A DNA stretch of 64,000 nt from an uncultured Bacillales bacterium (GTDB lineage Bacteria > Bacillota_I > Bacilli_A > RF39 > UBA660). How positions within the stretch are numbered: the first letter of the stretch is position 1; each line of letters starts with the position of its first letter. The stretch spans positions 5,007-69,006 of the forward strand of contig CAMKAT010000003.1 of NCBI GenBank assembly GCA_946410555.1, read 5' to 3'. The position numbers and the translations under genes are program-made. Shown here piece after piece: positions 56,813-64,000 of the stretch. The notes below the pieces were generated by a model that had not been told where the DNA came from, made no database searches, and was given only the letters and a program-made list of their open reading frames with translations.

Positions 56813-57367
56813 TTATTTAAGCATTAATCTTAAAGCATCTTTTATTTGTTCTTCTAAACTCTTAGTGTAATCAATGTTAGGTAAAACTTTCTTAATTTCT
56901 GGCTTCTTATATCCTAAGTTATCTAATACTTCAACAAGTTCATTAGAACCAACTGATGCACTTTCATTACCAGAAACAGCAAGTTTACCTTTTAAGTCTA
57001 AGATAATTTGTCTTGCTAGTTTATCTCCTACCTTAGGGAACTTAGTTAAATATAAAACATTTTCTCTATCAATTGCATCTATGATTCCATCAGGTGAACC
57101 TGTTGCAAACATAGGAAGTGCAATCTTAGGACCTAATCCTTTAACATTAATAAGTTTTAAGAATAACTCTTTTTCTTCTTCAGTTTTAAAACCGAATAAA
57201 GCTTGTGAGTTTTCAGTTATATGATGATATAAATATACTTTATATTCTTTACCTATCTCAAAAGCATATGGATTTGATACATAAACATCATATCCAATAC
57301 CATTATTATCTACTACTATTAAAGCAGATGTTTGATCTACTATTGTACCTTTTATGTAATTATACAT
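56813..57367 (-). CDS. ruvA: Holliday junction DNA-binding protein RuvA
   Basis: [10 protein letters not shown]...[11 protein letters not shown]-fold start and the HhH region [13 protein letters not shown]. Immediately upstream of ruvB. Confidence 0.9.
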
Positions 57368-57387
57368 ATAATCACCATCCTGAAATA

Positions 57388-57411
57388 ATTATATCATACA
57401 TTCGTACGAAT
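57388..57411 (-). promoter_or_regulatory. ruvA promoter: extended -10 (TGATATAAT) with the 12-bp perfect palindrome ATTCGTACGAAT over the spacer/-35 region
   Basis: -10 at 57388-57393 with TG at 57395-57396. Palindrome at 57400-57411. Confidence 0.45.
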
Positions 57412-57433
57412 ATATCTATTAATTTATTATTTT

Positions 57434-57465
57434 TCAAAAAAAATACTTGATAAAATCAAGTATTT
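57434..57465 (-). terminator. Intrinsic terminator after the three small membrane-protein genes
   Basis: 11-bp perfect stem AAATACTTGAT / ATCAAGTATTT with a 3-nt loop, followed on the minus strand by TTTTTTTTGAAAAA. Confidence 0.75.
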
Positions 57466-57483
57466 TATATTTAAAGAAAAAAT

Positions 57484-58116
57484 CTATTCTTCCGTATAAT
57501 AAACCATTGCATGAATATCATCAGGAGACCATAAATGCCATTCACCACCATGTCTGGTTAGAGTATCATTTTCAGGATTATATGTATAAACCAATTTATT
57601 ATTAATAACCTTTTTAGTTTGTTTAGTTATTGTAGTACTACTGGCATTTTTCATTTCTAATATATCTCTTACTTCAATATCAGATTTAATAGTAATAACG
57701 TTATCCACTTCAGTGTATGAACAATTATTACCAATATAAAAATAATAAATACCCCGTTTAGTTTCATAATCTTGTAAATATACTCCTGAAAAATCTTTAA
57801 AATTTAAATAACACCAACCATTATCACCAAAAGTTATTTTACCAGATTTATAATTTGTAGTTTTTACAATTATAAATTCTTTATTTAAATATTTTCTTTG
57901 TTTTTTAGTTGTTGTCTCAGTGGTTTCAGTTGTACTTTCAGGATTAATACTAATGCGATTATTTTCTCTTTTATCAAAAGTTAATACTAATAATATTATT
58001 ATAATAAAAACAATTAATAAGCACTTAATAATTTTTTGAGAATTAAAATTATTACTATTTTTTATTTTTTTCTTAGTAGTCTTTTTAATATTCTTTTTAG
58101 TTTTCTTTTTAGTCAT
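57484..58116 (-). CDS. Type-II membrane-anchored hypothetical protein (210 aa)
   Basis: Lys-rich N-terminus, one TM (IIKCLLIVFIIIILLVLTF), a Thr/Glu-rich linker and an extracytoplasmic beta-rich domain. Overlaps the upstream gene by 8 nt. Confidence 0.6.
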   Translation of the reverse strand: MTKKKTKKNIKKTTKKKIKNSNNFNSQKIIKCLLIVFIIIILLVLTFDKRENNRISINPESTTETTETTTKKQRKYLNKEFIIVKTTNYKSGKITFGDNGWCYLNFKDFSGVYLQDYETKRGIYYFYIGNNCSYTEVDNVITIKSDIEVRDILEMKNASSTTITKQTKKVINNKLVYTYNPENDTLTRHGGEWHLWSPDDIHAMVYYTEE

Positions 58117-58501
58117 TATTTTTCTCCTTTGTAAAACATTTAAAGGAAGAATTTAATTCATCATCTACTGTAACTTCACCATTTTCTACAATCTTCATTC
58201 TTTCCGCAATTATATAATAATCATAGTATCTAAAAGTTGTTTCAATTTCTGTAATATAGCCATTATTATTTCCGCTAATAGTACATAATATCTCGTTTCC
58301 TAATTTATATGTGCAATCGCTCTTTCTTATAGAATCAAATTTTTCAGAAATACACGCTTTATAGTCATATGGTAGATTTTTATTAAAAAACATATCATAA
58401 ACAACTATAGCTAAAAGTATAATAACGATAACTAGTAAAATAGATGATATAGGTAGTATATACTTATAAAGATTAAACTTCTTTTTATTCACTTTTTTCA
58501 T
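58109..58501 (-). CDS. Type-II membrane-anchored small protein (130 aa), paralogue of 58520..58906
   Basis: Basic N-terminus and one TM. Shares the pattern DY[KI].C[IL]S.KF...(D/G)(C/S)...I(L/I)C with the upstream gene. Confidence 0.6.
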   Translation of the reverse strand: MKKVNKKKFNLYKYILPISSILLVIVIILLAIVVYDMFFNKNLPYDYKACISEKFDSIRKSDCTYKLGNEILCTISGNNNGYITEIETTFRYYDYYIIAERMKIVENGEVTVDDELNSSFKCFTKEKNND

Positions 58502-58519
58502 TTGACCTGATCACCAATA

Positions 58520-58906
58520 TTAATCACATAATACTTTCTCATTATAATAATATTCTTTATAAAGCACATCATTTATATATACTTCTAATTTTTCATATGC
58601 AATACCATTACCTACTGTTGTTTGAAATTTATTTCTATATCTTGTATTACCTGATACTCTTTCACAAATAATTATACCACCTGATTTACTACAGGATCCT
58701 AAATCCGACATCTTAAATTTACTCAAACATTTTATATAATCTGTAGAATTATCATCCGAATTAATTCCCATATGTAAAATACAAGGAATAGCAATGATAA
58801 AAATGATGCCACTTATAATTATACCAGTTAATTGCACGCCCAAATTATTGTTATTTTCACTGCTGTCATTTTGTTTTTTGGCGGTTTTTTTCTTCCCTTT
58901 ACTCAT
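58520..58906 (-). CDS. Type-II membrane-anchored small protein (128 aa)
   Basis: GGAGAG SD 9 nt upstream of ATG 58906. Basic N-terminus, one TM (LTGIIISGIIFIIAIPCIL) and a Cys-containing ectodomain. Confidence 0.6.
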   Translation of the reverse strand: MSKGKKKTAKKQNDSSENNNNLGVQLTGIIISGIIFIIAIPCILHMGINSDDNSTDYIKCLSKFKMSDLGSCSKSGGIIICERVSGNTRYRNKFQTTVGNGIAYEKLEVYINDVLYKEYYYNEKVLCD

Positions 58907-58928
58907 ATAAACACACTCTCCTAGTTGA

Positions 58929-58967
58929 ATAATAATACGACCCCCCCCTCTGTCAACTTTGTTGACA
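58929..58967 (-). promoter_or_regulatory. Candidate promoter (TTGACA - 16 nt spacer containing G8 - TATTAT) with the inverted repeat TGTCAAC-TTT-GTTGACA over the -35
   Basis: Minus strand reads TTGTCAACAAAGTTGACAGAGGGGGGGGTCGTATTATTATTCAACTAGGAGAG..ATG. The -35 is perfect (58951-58956) and the -10 candidate is 58929-58934. Confidence 0.45.
58941..58948. repeat. Homopolymeric C8/G8 tract
   Basis: cccccccc at 58941-58948 in a genome that is otherwise extremely AT-rich. I noticed no other G/C run of comparable length while reading the window. Confidence 0.9.
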
Positions 58968-58989
58968 ACTTTTCATTTGTGTTTACACA

Positions 58990-59021
58990 CAAAACAAAAA
59001 AGTTGCTAAATTAGCAACTTT
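58990..59021 (-). terminator. Intrinsic terminator after polC
   Basis: 9-bp stem AAAGTTGCT / AGCAACTTT with a 5-nt loop directly after the stop, followed on the minus strand by TTTTGTTTTG. Confidence 0.7.
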
Positions 59022-62000
59022 TAAAATAACGATAATTGATTTGATTCACTTAAGTTTTGGAATACTCCTAAATCCTTAAGTTTTTCCATTGCACTTGTTG
59101 GACATTTACCTCTATTATGTAAATCTTCTTGAGATATAAATGGCATCTTTTTACGTTCTTCAATAATCTTCATTGCAACGTTTTCACCTAATCCATCAAT
59201 TGCACAGAAAGGAATAATAAGACCTTTACCATCTTCAGTTATAACGAAATCTTTTGCTTCACTCTTTTCAATATCAATATTCTTGAAATAGAATCCTCTA
59301 GCACACATCTCTAAACATAAAAGAAGTGTATCTTTTTTGTCTTTATCTACATCTGATAAGTTTGGAGTTAAATCCATTTCATCTATTTTATCTCTGATTC
59401 CTTTTTCACCTTGGATCATTGATGCTACATCAAATTTATCTCTTCTTATTGAAAGGTATGCACAATAATACCAAATTGGATGATGTACTTTAAACCATGC
59501 AATTCTAAATGCACTTGTTACATATGCTGTGGCATGCGCTTTAGGAAACATGTATTTAATCTTTCTACATGAATCAATATACCATTCAGGAATATTATGT
59601 TCTCTCATGTATTCAGCATGTTCTTTCCATGTTGCTGGATCTTTACTTGCTTTACCTTTACGTACAAATTCCATTATCTTGAAGGCTTTACCTGCAGGCA
59701 ATCCCCAAGCTATTAAGTTAACCATGATATCATCACGACAACCAATTACATTTTTAAATGGTACTTGAATTACTCCTTCTTCATTTGGAGTACATAAATC
59801 TTTAGCATTTCCAAGCCATACATCAGTACCATGAGATAGACCTGAGATTTTTATAAGTTCACCAAATGTTGTTGGTTTAGTATCTTCAAGCATTCCTAAT
59901 GTAAATGGTGTACCAAACTCTGGGATACCTAGAGTTCCAGTTGGACAATATTTAACTCCATCTTTAATAAGACCCCTTAGTTTAGTTGGTTCTAAATCAA
60001 TTGGATTTCCATCTGCTGTATATTTTCCAAGTATCTTAGGGCTTGTGAAAATAGACATTGTATCTAAGTCTCCTAAGTCGATATCATTTACATCTATTCC
60101 AGATAACTCACCTAGTTTTCTTAATACTGTTGGGTCATCGTGACCTAGTATATCAAGTTTAAGAAGGTCTGCTTCAATCTTATGATAATCGAAGTGTGTT
60201 GTTCTCCATTCAGCAGTAGGATCATCTGCTGGATATTGGAATGGTGTGAAATCCCAAACATCTTTATAACCCGGAACTACTACGATACCACCTGGGTGTT
60301 GCCCTGTAGTTCTTTTAACTCCAGTACATCCAATTGCTTGTCTTTCAACTTCAACATCTCTAATATCACATTTAATTAATTTTTTCTTCTTTAAGTCATC
60401 TTTAGAAGCAACTTTTATACCATACATCTTAGCTTCTTGAACTAAATCATTATATTCTTGATCTTCATAGAATCCTTGAACATAACCAAATGCTGTTTTA
60501 TCTGCAACTGTACCAATAGTACCTGCTCTATAAACATTATCAGTACCAAATAATACTTTAGTATAAGCATGTGCTGATGCTTGGTTTAATCCTGAAAAGT
60601 TAAGGTCGATATCTGGTACCTTTTCTCCAGCAAATCCTAGGAATGTTGCAAATGGCATGTCATTTCCTTGGTGAATCATAAGTGTTCCACATTCAGGACA
60701 ATTTTTGTTTGGTAAGTCATATCCACTTGCATATTTTTCAGCATAAGCATGTCCTTCTGAATCAACAAATTCATTATGACAACACTTAGGGCAATAATAA
60801 TGTGCAGGTAATCCATTACATTCAGTAATACCCATCATTGATGCTACAAACGATGAACCTACGGAACCACGGGAACCTACTAAGAATCCATCATCATTTG
60901 AGTGTTTAACTAGCTTTTGAGCAATAAGATAAATAACGTCGAAACCTCCACCAATAATTCCTGTAAGTTTTAGTTTGGCTTTTTCTATTGCTTCTTCTTC
61001 ACTTAATTCTGGTTCTTCTTTTTTGATTTCTTCAGTTTTAAGTTTAACTACTCCATCATATCCTGACATAATTACATCATGAAGATAACTTGAGAACATA
61101 TTATCTCTTTCTTCTTCAGACATATTTGGATATTCTTCTTCCATATGAGCTTTAACTAAATCAGTTATTTTATCTCCATAGAATTCTTGAGCAATACGCT
61201 CTTCGATATTTCTTGGAAGTGGATCTCCATACATTGAATGAGCTTTATTAAATACTAAATCTCTACATATTTCTTGTGAATGTTCAATGATTGGAGAATA
61301 AGGTTTTTCTGGATAATCTATAACTTCAATTTCTTCAAGTTCAGAGATTATCTTATTAGGGTTTTCTATAACCATTTCATGTATTAACTTATCATCTTTT
61401 AAGAATGCAAATGCATCTAACATTTCTTTAGTAGTTCTAAAGAATTGATTTGGAATTGATCCATGTTGTGTAACACCAGTATTACTAAACTTAGCTAGTA
61501 ATTTAAATGTTCCAGTTGATGGATCTATAGTAATAATATTTGCTATTTGAAGTTTTCTTAGAGACTTCTCAATAGCGCTTTTCTTATCATCTTCATTTTT
61601 TATTTGTTCTAGTTCATCGCTAGATTTTAACTCTTTTGGAGTTGAATAAATACTTAGGATATTCATTGCACTAATTGGAATAGATTTAAATCCATTAAGT
61701 ACATAAATGTATTTTAAAATCTTTTTATCAAAATCTGATAAACTTACTCCATTTCTTTCAGCTTTCTTAATAGCTTCTTCAAGATTTGTTTTATTAACTG
61801 GAGTCTTTGGTTTAGACTTTAAGCATCTTGCTAATACATGTCTTCCTTTACCAGGTACATTTTGATTAACAATTATCTCTCTTGATAAAACGTCTTCTGG
61901 ATTTAAGTTATGTACATCACCAGATGCAATTAACATCTTACCTGTTTCTTTAGCACACTTAATAATCTTTTTAACAAGTTTTACTAAATGATCCATATTA

Positions 62001-64000
62001 TTAATATCATGTGAATCAATTAAATATTTATAATTATCAAGTGGTTGAACTTCTATATAATCATAGAATTCCATAGCGCGCTTTAACTCTTCTTCTCCAC
62101 GAGTAAGTGCAATATTAAATATTTCACCATTAAGACAAGCAGAACCTACAAAACAATTTTCTCTTAATTCATTAACTAGTCTTCTTGGAATTCTTGCATT
62201 TCTACTTAAAAAATTAGTATTAGCAAAACTAATAATCTTAAATAGATTTTTAAGACCAGCATGATTCTTAGCAATTATAGTTATATGTTTAACTGAATCA
62301 TAATCATTAGCTATGTTTTCAGTGAAAGTTTCCGCTGGAATATTTTCATACATTTGAAGGTTATCTTTATGACACCAATCAAACTTCCATGAATATCCTT
62401 CCACTCCATAATCCTCGAAAGGATTTTCTGGATTAGTATCACTATCCATCTTTATCTTAATATAGTTTTTATATGAAACCATATCTTGAATATTCTTCAT
62501 ATATCTTGGATTATTTTTAATAGATATACTTTCTAATAAACCTAAATCATTAAGTTCATTAAGTGTTTTAATGCCATCGATTTGTTTAAGCATACTATTA
62601 AAGATTAATGCAGTATTTTCAGAGTCGACATCTGCACCATGGTGTTGACCAACATAAATAGAATAATCTATTTTGTATTCTTGTAATCCGTTTGTAATAA
62701 CAATTGGAATGTTGTTTTCAGCTGGATTAAGTTTAATCTTTCCAGTTTGAGATACAACGCTAAAGTCATCATTATTAAGGGTTACTTCAAAAGTAATATA
62801 TTCAGTTTTAGAACCAATATATTTCTTGATTAAACTGTATTCTTTTTTATAACCTTTAACTACAGTTTCAGTTGAAACATCTCTGATATCTTTTTCAGTT
62901 GTAGTTATATTTAAAATAGATTCACCATCTAGTTTTACATCTTGGATAATAGCTCCAGCTTCTTCTGGAACATCAAAAGTAGCGTTATCTCCATTATCTT
63001 CATCGTCATCAGCGTCTCCCTCGCCTGTATCAACTCCATAGTTTTTACCTAAGGCAGCAAGTGAATGACGTTTTAAATCTCTATTAATAACTCTAGATAA
63101 ATTTAAAGTATCTATGATTGGATTCTTTAGGGGACCTAAATCATATTTTAGATAAGCCATATCAAGCATATTTTTATCGAATTTAGCATTATGAGCAACT
63201 AATGGAAGATCTTCAATCCATTCTTTAAATCTCTTAGTTACGTTTTCCTCATTATCTGCATCTTTAACATCATCATCACTAATGTTTGTAACTCTAGTGA
63301 TTGCTTCATCAATGTGATGCCCAGGATTAATAAGTTCATCAAAACGATCAACAACTTCACCATGTTTAATCTTAACTCCACCGATTTCAATCATAGAGTC
63401 ACCTAAACCTGGGTTGAAACCTGTTGTTTCAGTATCGAATACTACGAATGTTTGATCTTTAAGAGGTCTTTCATCTGCATTGAAACAAACATTAAGGTAA
63501 GAATCAAACATATCAAGTTCTACACCATAAGCTGCTTTAAATGGTACGTAATTCTTCTTTTCATTACGTAATTCCTCGTTCATTTCTTCAAGTGCTTTTA
63601 TTCCTTCGACATTACCTGACTCTCTTAATTCTTCGATAGTTTTTTCATTTTCTTTTATCTTTTCATCAAATTCTTTTTTCTTTGATTTGTTGTATTTAGT
63701 TACTTTATCAAATACATGTGGGAATGCTTGACAACAATCGTGGTCAGTAATTGCAATACCTTTATGTCCAAATTTAATAGCAGTATCAACTAACTTTTCT
63801 TCATCAATAACTCCATCCATTTGAGACATCATAGTATGTGCATGCATCTCAACACGTTTTTCAGGATAATCATCTTTTCTTGAAACAATCGGAGAATCAA
63901 TACCTTCATAAGTTCTCATATTGAATACTAAGTCATGAGCATATTGATCATCTCTTACTTGTCCTGTGAAATGATACCAATTACCCTTCTTAAGTTCTTT
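59021..64000 (-). CDS. polC: DNA polymerase III alpha subunit, PolC type (5' end beyond the window)
   Basis: PHP HAHTMMSQMDG; exonuclease motifs FVVFDTETTGF, AHNAKFDKNML, HHGADVDSENTALIF; zinc module CPKCCHNEF...CPECG; polymerase core to the C-terminus. The frame stays open upstream of track Met 63919 to nt 64000 (KELKKGNWYHFTGQVRDDQYAHDLVFN, the end of the OB domain). Confidence 0.95.
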   Translation of the reverse strand, partial: KELKKGNWYHFTGQVRDDQYAHDLVFNMRTYEGIDSPIVSRKDDYPEKRVEMHAHTMMSQMDGVIDEEKLVDTAIKFGHKGIAITDHDCCQAFPHVFDKVTKYNKSKKKEFDEKIKENEKTIEELRESGNVEGIKALEEMNEELRNEKKNYVPFKAAYGVELDMFDSYLNVCFNADERPLKDQTFVVFDTETTGFNPGLGDSMIEIGGVKIKHGEVVDRFDELINPGHHIDEAITRVTNISDDDVKDADNEENVTKRFKEWIEDLPLVAHNAKFDKNMLDMAYLKYDLGPLKNPIIDTLNLSRVINRDLKRHSLAALGKNYGVDTGEGDADDDEDNGDNATFDVPEEAGAIIQDVKLDGESILNITTTEKDIRDVSTETVVKGYKKEYSLIKKYIGSKTEYITFEVTLNNDDFSVVSQTGKIKLNPAENNIPIVITNGLQEYKIDYSIYVGQHHGADVDSENTALIFNSMLKQIDGIKTLNELNDLGLLESISIKNNPRYMKNIQDMVSYKNYIKIKMDSDTNPENPFEDYGVEGYSWKFDWCHKDNLQMYENIPAETFTENIANDYDSVKHITIIAKNHAGLKNLFKIISFANTNFLSRNARIPRRLVNELRENCFVGSACLNGEIFNIALTRGEEELKRAMEFYDYIEVQPLDNYKYLIDSHDINNMDHLVKLVKKIIKCAKETGKMLIASGDVHNLNPEDVLSREIIVNQNVPGKGRHVLARCLKSKPKTPVNKTNLEEAIKKAERNGVSLSDFDKKILKYIYVLNGFKSIPISAMNILSIYSTPKELKSSDELEQIKNEDDKKSAIEKSLRKLQIANIITIDPSTGTFKLLAKFSNTGVTQHGSIPNQFFRTTKEMLDAFAFLKDDKLIHEMVIENPNKIISELEEIEVIDYPEKPYSPIIEHSQEICRDLVFNKAHSMYGDPLPRNIEERIAQEFYGDKITDLVKAHMEEEYPNMSEEERDNMFSSYLHDVIMSGYDGVVKLKTEEIKKEEPELSEEEAIEKAKLKLTGIIGGGFDVIYLIAQKLVKHSNDDGFLVGSRGSVGSSFVASMMGITECNGLPAHYYCPKCCHNEFVDSEGHAYAEKYASGYDLPNKNCPECGTLMIHQGNDMPFATFLGFAGEKVPDIDLNFSGLNQASAHAYTKVLFGTDNVYRAGTIGTVADKTAFGYVQGFYEDQEYNDLVQEAKMYGIKVASKDDLKKKKLIKCDIRDVEVERQAIGCTGVKRTTGQHPGGIVVVPGYKDVWDFTPFQYPADDPTAEWRTTHFDYHKIEADLLKLDILGHDDPTVLRKLGELSGIDVNDIDLGDLDTMSIFTSPKILGKYTADGNPIDLEPTKLRGLIKDGVKYCPTGTLGIPEFGTPFTLGMLEDTKPTTFGELIKISGLSHGTDVWLGNAKDLCTPNEEGVIQVPFKNVIGCRDDIMVNLIAWGLPAGKAFKIMEFVRKGKASKDPATWKEHAEYMREHNIPEWYIDSCRKIKYMFPKAHATAYVTSAFRIAWFKVHHPIWYYCAYLSIRRDKFDVASMIQGEKGIRDKIDEMDLTPNLSDVDKDKKDTLLLCLEMCARGFYFKNIDIEKSEAKDFVITEDGKGLIIPFCAIDGLGENVAMKIIEERKKMPFISQEDLHNRGKCPTSAMEKLKDLGVFQNLSESNQLSLF

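What the first reader, a model, noticed from the sequence alone, without database searches (positions are those of the whole stretch)
58929..58967. G8/C8 homopolymer inside the spacer of a TTGACA promoter: a candidate slipped-strand phase-variation switch for three small surface proteins
Seen in sequence: the intergenic region between polC and the first of three co-transcribed type-II membrane-protein genes (58906 down to 57484) reads on the coding strand TTGTCAAC-AAA-GTTGACA-GA-GGGGGGGG-TCG-TATTAT-TATTCAACTAGGAGAG-N9-ATG.

It contains a perfect -35 (TTGACA, 58951-58956). A G8 run (58941-58948) lies in the spacer. The -10-like TATTAT sits at a 16-nt spacing, so one extra G would give the optimal 17 nt.

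An 8-nt G/C run is highly conspicuous in DNA this AT-rich.

Established knowledge: length changes of homopolymers between the -35 and -10 switch expression of surface proteins in Neisseria, Haemophilus and Mycoplasma.

The -35 is also embedded in a 7-bp inverted repeat (TGTCAAC/GTTGACA). That repeat could be an operator.
Basis: partly seen in the sequence, partly recalled or inferred. Interest (0 to 1): 0.6.

Follow-up and report, generated by a model that had tools for sequence, protein, structure and literature searches.

The report
Poly-G tract inside an operon promoter
A run of eight G's sits between the two recognition boxes of the only promoter for three small membrane-protein genes in an uncultured gut bacterium. 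The same design recurs across its family with varying G counts, so it is probably a slippage-prone expression dial of a classical kind, although all four available assemblies of this species carry eight G's.

Summary
On the minus strand the sequence reads TTGACA (58956-58951), GA, G8 (58948-58941), TCGTAT, TATTAT (58934-58929; 16-nt spacer), SD, ATG 58906. Terminators on both sides make this the only promoter for three orphan type-II membrane-protein genes, which lie in a variable polC-ruvA slot.

The G8 is the only G/C run of 7 or more in the 1.36-Mb, 27%-GC genome.

Across 301 genomes of the same family of small-genome gut Bacilli:
- TTGACA followed within 6 nt by G7 or longer occurs in 38 genomes (3 for the reversed control).
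- The geometry is the same as here, and the genes downstream encode secreted or membrane proteins.
- Some genomes carry 40-69 G8+ tracts.
- Tract length differs among paralogous copies with identical flanks.
- It also differs between strains at two of five orthologous loci. One of these has almost the same promoter as here (TTGACA-GA-Gn-TC, G8 vs G9).

Verdict: a new member of the porA-type promoter-spacer homopolymer class. Slippage-driven dialling is likely (about 0.55) but unproven.

The parts
59021..64000 (-). 3' part of polC (runs off the window); the conserved upstream neighbour
   Evidence: ORF list. The 3' end is 70-92% identical in genus relatives, and similarity stops at the stop codon.
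58998..59022 (-). Intrinsic terminator of polC (11-bp stem, 3-nt loop, T run)
   Evidence: Terminator scan; RNA fold.
58976..58993 (-). Small hairpin TTTGTGT-GTAA-ACACAAA between terminator and promoter; role unknown
   Evidence: Sequence; fold.
58951..58967 (-). Inverted repeat TGTCAAC-AAA-GTTGACA whose right arm holds the -35; role unknown
   Evidence: It is the only such repeat in the genome.
58951..58956 (-). -35 hexamer TTGACA (perfect consensus)
58941..58948 (-). G8 homopolymer in the spacer, 2 nt after the -35 and 6 nt before the -10
   Evidence: Only G/C run of 7 or more in the genome. G8 in 4 of 4 assemblies.
58929..58934 (-). -10 hexamer TATTAT at a 16-nt spacing. It is part of a TATTATTATT stretch that also offers a hexamer at 13 nt.
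   Evidence: 11/12 match. In this genome, spacers between TTGACA and a -10 peak at 17 nt and then 16 nt.
58916..58922 (-). Shine-Dalgarno AGGAGAG. The predicted start of transcription is about 58922 +/- 2, giving a leader of about 16 nt (inferred).
   Evidence: Sequence. Related poly-G promoters also have short tract-to-ATG distances: 33-46 nt at 19 of the 25 loci where an ORF was called, against 34 here.
58520..58906 (-). Gene 1: 128-aa type-II membrane protein (6 K/R in the N-terminus, one TM span, 77-aa Cys-containing ectodomain); orphan
   Evidence: no Pfam family. It is found only in this species.
58109..58501 (-). Gene 2: 130-aa type-II membrane protein; weak similarity to gene 1 (33% over 45 aa, E 0.23)
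57484..58116 (-). Gene 3: 210-aa type-II membrane protein (11 K/R in the N-terminus, T/E-rich linker, 140-aa ectodomain); near-orphan
   Evidence: Only 3 weak relatives among 1.84 billion representatives.
57436..57465 (-). AT-rich terminator hairpin (perfect 11-bp stem AAATACTTGAT/ATCAAGTATTT, loop TTT, T run) that closes the three-gene unit before ruvA
   Evidence: Read from the sequence. The scan does not list it because the stem has only 2 G-C pairs.

Best explanation
The segment is the sigma-A-type promoter of a terminator-bounded three-gene operon for small type-II membrane proteins. It belongs to a family-wide class of promoters whose -35/-10 spacer is largely a poly-G tract.

Proposed mechanism: slipped-strand mispairing in the G run during replication adds or removes a G. 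That changes the spacer length: G7 gives 15 nt, G8 gives 16, G9 gives 17, G10 gives 18. Changing the spacer changes how well RNA polymerase can contact both hexamers, so the tract works as a heritable, reversible expression dial (a contingency locus).

The present G8 state gives 16 nt, an ON but sub-optimal spacing. One more G should give maximal expression and one fewer should give weak expression.

Shown here: the anatomy, the uniqueness of the tract in the genome, the recurrence of the design in the family, and tract-length differences between paralogues and between strains at other loci.

Inferred: promoter activity, the dependence of expression on tract length, and any appreciable switching rate at this particular locus.
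For: 1. The promoter scores 11/12 and is the best site in a 114-nt intergenic region. It lies between the polC terminator and gene 1, and a second terminator follows gene 3.
2. In this genome, TTGACA paired with a near-consensus -10 peaks at a 17-nt spacer (25 sites), then 16 nt (13 sites), over a background of about 5. So +/-1 G moves the promoter across the optimum.
3. This is the only G/C run of 7 or more in 1.36 Mb. The chance that a random run lands in such a spacer is about 5e-4.
4. In the genus there are only three G8+ tracts in 12 genomes. Two lie 2 nt after a perfect TTGACA, upstream of small single-pass membrane proteins (this window, and G011 with TTGACA-TC-G9). The third is an intragenic frameshift site.
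5. In the family, TTGACA-N0-6-G7+ occurs in 38 of 301 genomes, against 3 for the reversed control.
6. The geometry is uniform: the tract ends 5-9 nt before a -10 at 24 of the 28 distinct loci where one was called, and the ATG lies 33-46 nt after the tract at 19 of the 25 loci with a called ORF. The products carry signal peptides, TM anchors, pilin-like or TasA/camelysin-like leaders.
7. Of the 301 genomes, 200 have at least one G8+ run and some have 40-69. About 0.26 per genome is expected by chance.
8. Paralogous copies with near-identical flanks differ in tract length: G9 vs G13 in G075, G8-G11 in G245, G8/G9 in G022.
9. At an orthologous promoter of almost the same sequence (TTGACA-GA-Gn-TCATTA-TATACT), five assemblies have G9 and five have G8. 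At a second locus the lengths are G7 vs G8, among only 4 differences in 1.67 kb.
10. The mechanism is established for the N. meningitidis porA promoter, where 11G gives high expression and 10G and 9G give reduced expression (PMC3639595).
Against: - All four assemblies of this species carry G8, although they differ by 1-4 SNPs over 1.4-2.4 kb.
- G011's tract is G9 in all three assemblies that span it. A third species keeps G8 in four assemblies, including one diverged allele. Tracts are therefore not wildly unstable.
- Where length does vary, it tracks allele lineage rather than sample.
- MutS is present, and eight is the short end for high-rate slippage.
- The genome has no other such tract, so there is no 'phasome' here.
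- No reads, transcripts or reporter data exist.
- Promoter-like sites as a class are not enriched in this AT-rich region (17 found, 16.6 expected). The promoter call rests on the quality of this one site and on its context.
Confidence: 0.55

Rival explanations
1. It is a fixed promoter with a frozen tract. The segment is the operon's promoter, but in this species the G8 is effectively stable. It may be a relic inherited with the three-gene cassette from a tract-rich relative, or a structural spacer kept at 16 nt by selection. Expression would then be constitutive or regulated by other means.
For: - G8 in 4 of 4 assemblies that differ by SNPs.
- MutS is present.
- It is the only tract in the genome, and the genus has 0-1 per genome.
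- G8 is also conserved in a diverged allele of another species.
- The cassette sits in a variable polC-ruvA slot and could have arrived by transfer.
Against: - The design is 10- to 30-fold enriched over the control in the family, and its tracts do change length between paralogues and strains.
- Even for porA, thousands of isolates mostly share one tract length (PMC3639595). Four consensus sequences therefore cannot show stability.
Confidence: 0.32
2. It is a protein-binding element. The G run and/or the 7-bp inverted repeat over the -35 would be an operator for a regulator, and the homopolymer matters through its sequence rather than its length.
For: - The inverted repeat TGTCAAC-AAA-GTTGACA overlaps the -35.
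- Some related poly-G promoters carry a conserved TTATCCACA-like motif just upstream of the -35. This shows that extra cis elements exist in the class.
Against: - The repeat occurs nowhere else in the genome and is absent from the related poly-G promoters.
- No regulator gene is adjacent.
- Tract length varies from G7 to G13 in the class, which does not suit a fixed binding site.
Confidence: 0.08
3. It is chance. The G run and the promoter-like hexamers coincide in AT-rich intergenic DNA without any functional link.
For: - An independent-base model expects about 0.26 G/C runs of 8 or more per genome of this size and composition, so one run is not rare in itself (arithmetic).
- Promoter-like matches are as common in shuffled sequence.
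Against: - The joint probability of a run lying inside a spacer of a site scoring 11/12 or better is about 1e-4 per genome.
- The same arrangement recurs in a sister species and across the family, with a clean reversed-pattern control.
Confidence: 0.05

Closest known systems
Neisseria meningitidis porA promoter (poly-G between -35 and -10)
   Same: A G homopolymer forms part of the -35/-10 spacer of a surface-protein promoter. One-base length changes grade expression rather than giving strict on/off (11G high, 10G about 2-fold lower, 9G much lower; PMC3639595).
   Different: porA belongs to a Gram-negative pathogen, with a 9-11 G tract and experimentally shown switching. Here the host is an AT-rich, small-genome, uncultured gut member of the Bacilli, the tract is G8, it drives a three-gene operon of orphan membrane proteins, and no length variation has yet been seen in this species.
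Mycoplasma hyorhinis vlp promoters and Mycoplasma mycoides Vmm (poly-A or TA repeats in the promoter spacer)
   Different: Those repeats are A or TA and match the AT-rich genome. Here the tract is G, against the genome's composition. Those products are lipoproteins. Here they are type-II membrane proteins, and elsewhere in the family they carry signal-peptide, pilin-like or TasA-like leaders.
Campylobacter jejuni poly-G/C contingency loci
   Same: Many G/C homopolymers of 8 or more occur in a small AT-rich genome and affect surface structures (PMC8355987, listed). The tract-rich genomes of this family (40-69 tracts) resemble that load.
   Different: Per that review's abstract, Campylobacter tracts are both intergenic and intragenic; that they are mostly intragenic and that the genus lacks MutS/MutL is my own knowledge. 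In this family nearly all of the 60 sampled tracts lie upstream of genes, and MutS is present.
Treponema pallidum tpr and Bordetella pertussis fim promoters (poly-G / poly-C tracts)
   Same: G/C homopolymers in promoter regions modulate transcription of surface antigens (from my own knowledge; PMC1891110 on Bordetella was listed).
   Different: In Bordetella the tract spaces an activator site from the -10. In this window the tract lies between plain sigma-A-type hexamers.
   Same: The -35, the 0-6-nt gap, a tract that usually ends 5-9 nt before the -10, and a short tract-to-ATG distance (33-46 nt at most loci) are the same.
   Different: The downstream genes are unrelated. Tract-rich genomes use the design on multigene families, whereas this genome has a single copy.

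Membership tests
Promoter-spacer homopolymer phase-variation locus (porA type) | A homopolymer of about 7 or more lying between the -35 and -10 of a recognisable promoter | tested here: met
   TTGACA-GA-G8-TCGTAT-TATTAT, with an 11/12 match and a 16-nt spacer.
Promoter-spacer homopolymer phase-variation locus (porA type) | A +/-1 repeat unit moves the spacer across the optimum used by the organism | tested here: met
   The genome's own TTGACA/-10 pairs peak at 17 nt, then 16 nt, over a flat background. G9 would give 17 nt and G7 would give 15.
Promoter-spacer homopolymer phase-variation locus (porA type) | Tract length differs between strains at the same locus | tested here: inconclusive
   This locus is G8 in 4 of 4 assemblies. 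That is low power: the assemblies are near-identical strains and consensus sequences. Analogous loci in other species give G8 vs G9 and G7 vs G8, but no change in two others.
Promoter-spacer homopolymer phase-variation locus (porA type) | Length heterogeneity within one population (reads or colonies) | not testable with these tools
Two metagenome pattern scans found nothing.
Promoter-spacer homopolymer phase-variation locus (porA type) | Expression changes with tract length | not testable with these tools
   This needs reporter fusions or transcript data.
Promoter-spacer homopolymer phase-variation locus (porA type) | The controlled genes encode surface-exposed or secreted products | tested here: met
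   Three proteins, each with a basic N-terminus, a single hydrophobic span and a C-terminal ectodomain. This is a prediction only.
Poly-G sigma-A promoter class of this small-genome gut Bacilli family (defined here) | TTGACA-like -35, 0-6 nt, G7-G13, usually 5-9 nt, -10 hexamer, ATG usually 33-46 nt after the tract | tested here: met
   The window has a 2-nt gap, G8, a 6-nt gap and the ATG at +34. This matches the modal values of 29 such promoters at 27 loci.
Poly-G sigma-A promoter class of this small-genome gut Bacilli family (defined here) | Sequence homology of the promoter cassette or of the downstream gene to other members | tested here: not met
   The downstream proteins are unrelated to those of G011 and others and are orphans. 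Only the short TTGACAGA-Gn-TC core is shared with G262. Membership is by design, not by descent.

The most novel reading that the evidence does not exclude
The window's G8 may be one outlying copy of an undescribed, family-wide contingency system. A large family of uncultured, small-genome (0.5-1.7 Mb) gut Bacilli places poly-G tracts in or next to sigma-A promoters of secreted, pilin-like, TasA-like and membrane-protein genes. Some genomes carry 40-69 such tracts, in multigene families whose copies differ only in tract length. That would be a Campylobacter-scale, promoter-based 'phasome' in MMR-proficient commensal Firmicutes. My literature searches found no description of it.
Probability: 0.5. 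Interest if true: 0.65.

Novelty: new member of a known kind. Interest (0 to 1): 0.45.

Why it matters
If the tract does slip, this commensal can vary, cell by cell, the level of three otherwise unknown envelope proteins. These are plausible targets of phage, immunity or competitors. Such variation is invisible in consensus MAGs.

More broadly, the comparative result points to promoter-embedded poly-G tracts as a common way for uncultured, reduced-genome gut Bacilli to diversify their surface. This matters in three ways:
- for interpreting strain variation in metagenomes;
- for assembly breaks, since many tracts lie at contig ends;
- for choosing which orphan surface genes to study first.

The mechanism itself is classical, so the gain is in its breadth and host range, not in principle.

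Tried and rejected
- **Pattern scans.** Two scans of JGI metagenome contigs for the locus with a variable tract found nothing.
- **Exact look-up of gene 1's product.** This found nothing. A 99%-identical variant led to three further assemblies, all G8.
- **Strain comparison through homologues of G011's 241-aa protein.** The well-sampled homologues (P0011, P0015) lie in other taxa behind ordinary AT-rich promoters with a divergent HTH gene and no poly-G. They were uninformative.
- **Domain and RNA searches.** Pfam found nothing significant for the three proteins. Rfam found nothing in 57300-59200.
- **Operator idea.** The inverted repeat is unique in the genome.
- **MMR-loss idea.** Rejected, because MutS is present in this genome and in 30 of 31 relatives. 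MutL was not checked.
- **Uniform-geometry idea.** Only partly true. In G245, G190 and G022 the -35/-10 assignment around the tract is unclear, and in G235 and G075 the tract abuts the -10.
- **Sequencing artefact (two-colour poly-G read tails).** Rejected for the window: four assemblies run through the tract with unique sequence on both sides.

Full report
**1. What is there**

Read on the minus strand, the 114-nt gap between polC and the next gene contains these features in order:
- the polC stop codon and a strong intrinsic terminator (59022-58998);
- a small hairpin (58993-58976);
- an inverted repeat TGTCAAC-AAA-GTTGACA (58967-58951) whose right arm holds a perfect -35, TTGACA (58956-58951);
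- GA, then G8 (58948-58941), then TCGTAT;
- TATTAT (58934-58929);
- AGGAGAG (58922-58916) and ATG at 58906.

The consensus scan ranks this pair first in the region, at 11 of 12 matches with a 16-nt spacer. That hexamer is only 13 nt from the -35. The 16-nt figure belongs to the overlapping TATTAT three bases further on.

Three ORFs follow, of 128, 130 and 210 aa, separated by an 18-nt gap and then an 8-nt overlap. Each has its own SD. They end at an AT-rich 11-bp hairpin with a T run (57465-57436, read), just before the ruvA promoter. The unit is therefore insulated on both sides, and the poly-G promoter is its only evident driver.

Each protein has a strongly basic N-terminus (5-11 K/R), one hydrophobic span and a Cys-containing C-terminal part. 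This indicates type-II topology, N-terminus in and C-terminus out. They have no Pfam family and essentially no relatives. No Rfam family matches the region.

**2. Is it more than chance?**

The assembly is 1.36 Mb in 55 contigs at 26.97% GC. The window's tract is its only G/C run of 7 or more. The five next-longest runs have six bases: two lie within SD regions, one is in a probable tRNA gene (my reading of the sequence), and two lie upstream of a gene on a small contig.

An independent-base model expects about 0.26 runs of 8 or more per genome, so the run alone is not extraordinary. Its position is. Only 0.05% of positions lie wholly inside the spacer of one of the 137 promoter-like sites scoring 11/12 or better.

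In this genome the spacing between TTGACA and a near-consensus -10 peaks at 17 nt (25 sites), then 16 nt (13 sites), over a background of about 5. One G more or less therefore moves the promoter onto or off the optimum.

**3. Surroundings**

polC and ruvA are neighbours throughout the genus, but the DNA between them differs in every species examined:
- nothing at all;
- a 629-645-aa protein;
- an ABC-type protein;
- unrelated small proteins;
- a short element that encodes a 23-aa hydrophobic peptide.

The three-gene cassette is confined to this species. By RuvB similarity the organism belongs to uncultured gut and rumen 'Bacilli bacterium', 'Tenericutes' and 'Mycoplasma sp.' MAGs. These include Candidatus Caccenecus and Candidatus Ventrenecus.

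**4. The same design elsewhere**

*Genus.* Twelve genomes hold only three G8+ tracts.
- The first is the window's.
- The second, in G011, reads TTGACA-TC-G9-TGCGA-TATTCT, with the ATG 33 nt after the tract. It lies in front of a 241-aa single-pass membrane protein with a Thr-rich linker. That gene is unrelated to the window's genes.
- The third, in G002, is intragenic. At G8 the frame stops four codons later, and G9 would give one 326-aa PAPS-reductase-like ORF.

*Family, promoter pattern.* I scanned 301 genomes for TTGACA-N0-6-G7+. It is present in 38 genomes, often many times. The same pattern read backwards hits 3 genomes.

In the loci returned, the layout is uniform:
- the tract starts 0-6 nt after the -35;
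- it ends 5-9 nt (mode 6-7) before a -10, often a TG-extended one, at 24 of the 28 distinct loci where a -10 was called;
- the ATG follows 33-46 nt after the tract at 19 of the 25 loci where an ORF was called.

The window's values are 2, 6 and 34. Spacers fall at 14-20 nt, with modes at 16 and at 19-20. Within the 16-17 group, tract length compensates for flank length (G7 with 9-10 flanking bases, up to G11-12 with 5-6). This argues that the hexamer assignment is meaningful.

The downstream products have signal peptides, N-terminal anchors, pilin-like leaders or TasA/camelysin-type leaders. One matches Peptidase_M73.

*Family, all tracts.* Of the 301 genomes, 200 hold at least one G8+ run, and several hold 40-69 (G022 69, G214 55, G271 53, G223 49). 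Fewer than 0.3 are expected by chance.

I took sixty tracts from six such genomes. Nearly all lie in conserved, multi-copy upstream cassettes of secreted-protein gene families.

The geometry is not always that of a spacer. In G235 and G075 the tract abuts TATAAT, 8-9 nt after a TTGCAA- or TTGCCA-type -35. In G245, G190 and G022 I could not assign the hexamers with confidence.

**5. Do the tracts change length?**

*Between paralogues*, copies with near-identical flanks differ in tract length:
- G9 vs G13 in G075;
- G8, G9, G10 and G11 among 13 copies in G245;
- G8/G9 in G022, G9/G10 in G235 and G248, and G10/G11 in G190.

*Between strains at the same locus*, five comparisons were possible.
1. 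This window: four assemblies with 1-4 SNPs over 1.4-2.4 kb, all G8.
2. G011: three assemblies spanning the tract, all G9 and probably one sample. A fourth contig ends inside the tract.
3. The G262 species has an almost identical promoter (TTGACA-GA-Gn-TCATTA-TATACT). Five assemblies have G9 and five have G8. The only other change in 120 nt is an A6/A7 run.
4. The G176 species: G7 vs G8, among only four differences in 1.67 kb.
5. The G071 species: G8 in four assemblies, one of which is a diverged allele.

The tracts are therefore clearly more mutable than their flanks, but they are not chaotic. Where length varies, it tracks lineage.

MutS is present in this genome and in 30 of 31 relatives.

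Many tracts lie at contig ends. This fits mixed lengths or repeated cassettes, but it proves neither.

**6. Interpretation**

The best reading is a porA-type promoter-spacer homopolymer. Slippage in the G run changes the spacer length and so the level of operon transcription. The current 16-nt state is ON but sub-optimal.

The parallel with porA is documented: a poly-G between -35 and -10, with graded expression at 11G, 10G and 9G (PMC3639595). That paper also notes that very few of 2,358 epidemic isolates had altered tracts. Four identical consensus sequences therefore do not show stability.

I put this reading at 0.55. The main rival is a promoter whose tract is effectively frozen in this species (0.32). 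The operator idea (0.08) and chance (0.05) have little support, because the inverted repeat is unique in the genome and absent from related promoters.

**7. Novelty**

The mechanism is classical. The library searches found no account of poly-G promoter tracts in this lineage.

Earlier notes of this scan report the same theme in other uncultured gut Firmicutes. They agree with my result but are not independent evidence.

As an individual locus, this is a new member of a known kind, with moderate interest. The family-wide pattern is the more interesting part.

**8. Limits**

- No reads, transcripts or experiments were available.
- The promoter and the transcription start are predictions.
- The GTDB name of the family could not be established with the tools.

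Noticed in passing
window 57367-59021, compared with L013-L022: The polC-ruvA junction is a variable slot. Each species of the genus holds different cargo there: nothing, a 629-645-aa protein, an ABC-type protein, a 174-176-aa protein, or two small proteins. The flanking genes stay syntenic.
   Followed up: partly
L017:400-700, L020:400-650, L021:350-600, L022:400-1000 (two copies): In four relatives the slot carries a conserved short element. It consists of a hairpin-rich leader, a 23-24-aa hydrophobic peptide ORF (for example MIKRTDIVVFLLIIIIILLIIFN) with a strong SD, and a conserved downstream hairpin region. This resembles a type I toxin-antitoxin module. It has no Pfam or Rfam match.
   Followed up: partly
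L026:1163-1170 (G002, same genus): An intragenic G8 splits a PAPS-reductase-like gene. The frame stops four codons after the tract, and G9 would give one 326-aa ORF. This is either an OFF-state contingency gene, a pseudogene or a homopolymer assembly error.
   Followed up: partly
L040, L041, L052, L031, L048 (other genera of the family): A DnaA-box-like motif (TTATCCACA / TTTCCACA) lies 5-8 nt upstream of the -35 in several poly-G promoters. It may be an activator site shared by these cassettes. It is absent from the window.
   Followed up: no
L163-L175 (G245): Thirteen copies of one cassette read TTGACT-N24-G8..G11-TAAAAAACCCTCTTTTTTT-SD-ATG, in front of pilin-like and signal-peptide genes. 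Here the tract is followed by a C-rich segment and a T run, a terminator-like hairpin. The tract may act in the leader rather than in the promoter spacer.
   Followed up: no
genome contig C49:2148-2194 (outside the window): Two G6 runs lie 41 nt apart upstream of a gene on a 4.8-kb contig. In C4 and C5, the G6 runs lie within the SD regions of their genes.
   Followed up: no
window 58929-58938: The -10 region is a (TAT)3T repeat. It offers -10-like hexamers in a 3-nt register (13-, 16- and a weaker 19-nt spacing), so tract changes of three G's could re-register the promoter.
   Followed up: no
L223-L231: In the G262 species the G8/G9 difference co-occurs with an A6/A7 difference 10 nt upstream of the -35. 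The downstream gene pair is replaced from about 1.1 kb onward (about 60% of aligned positions differ). This suggests a recombination breakpoint inside the first gene.
   Followed up: partly
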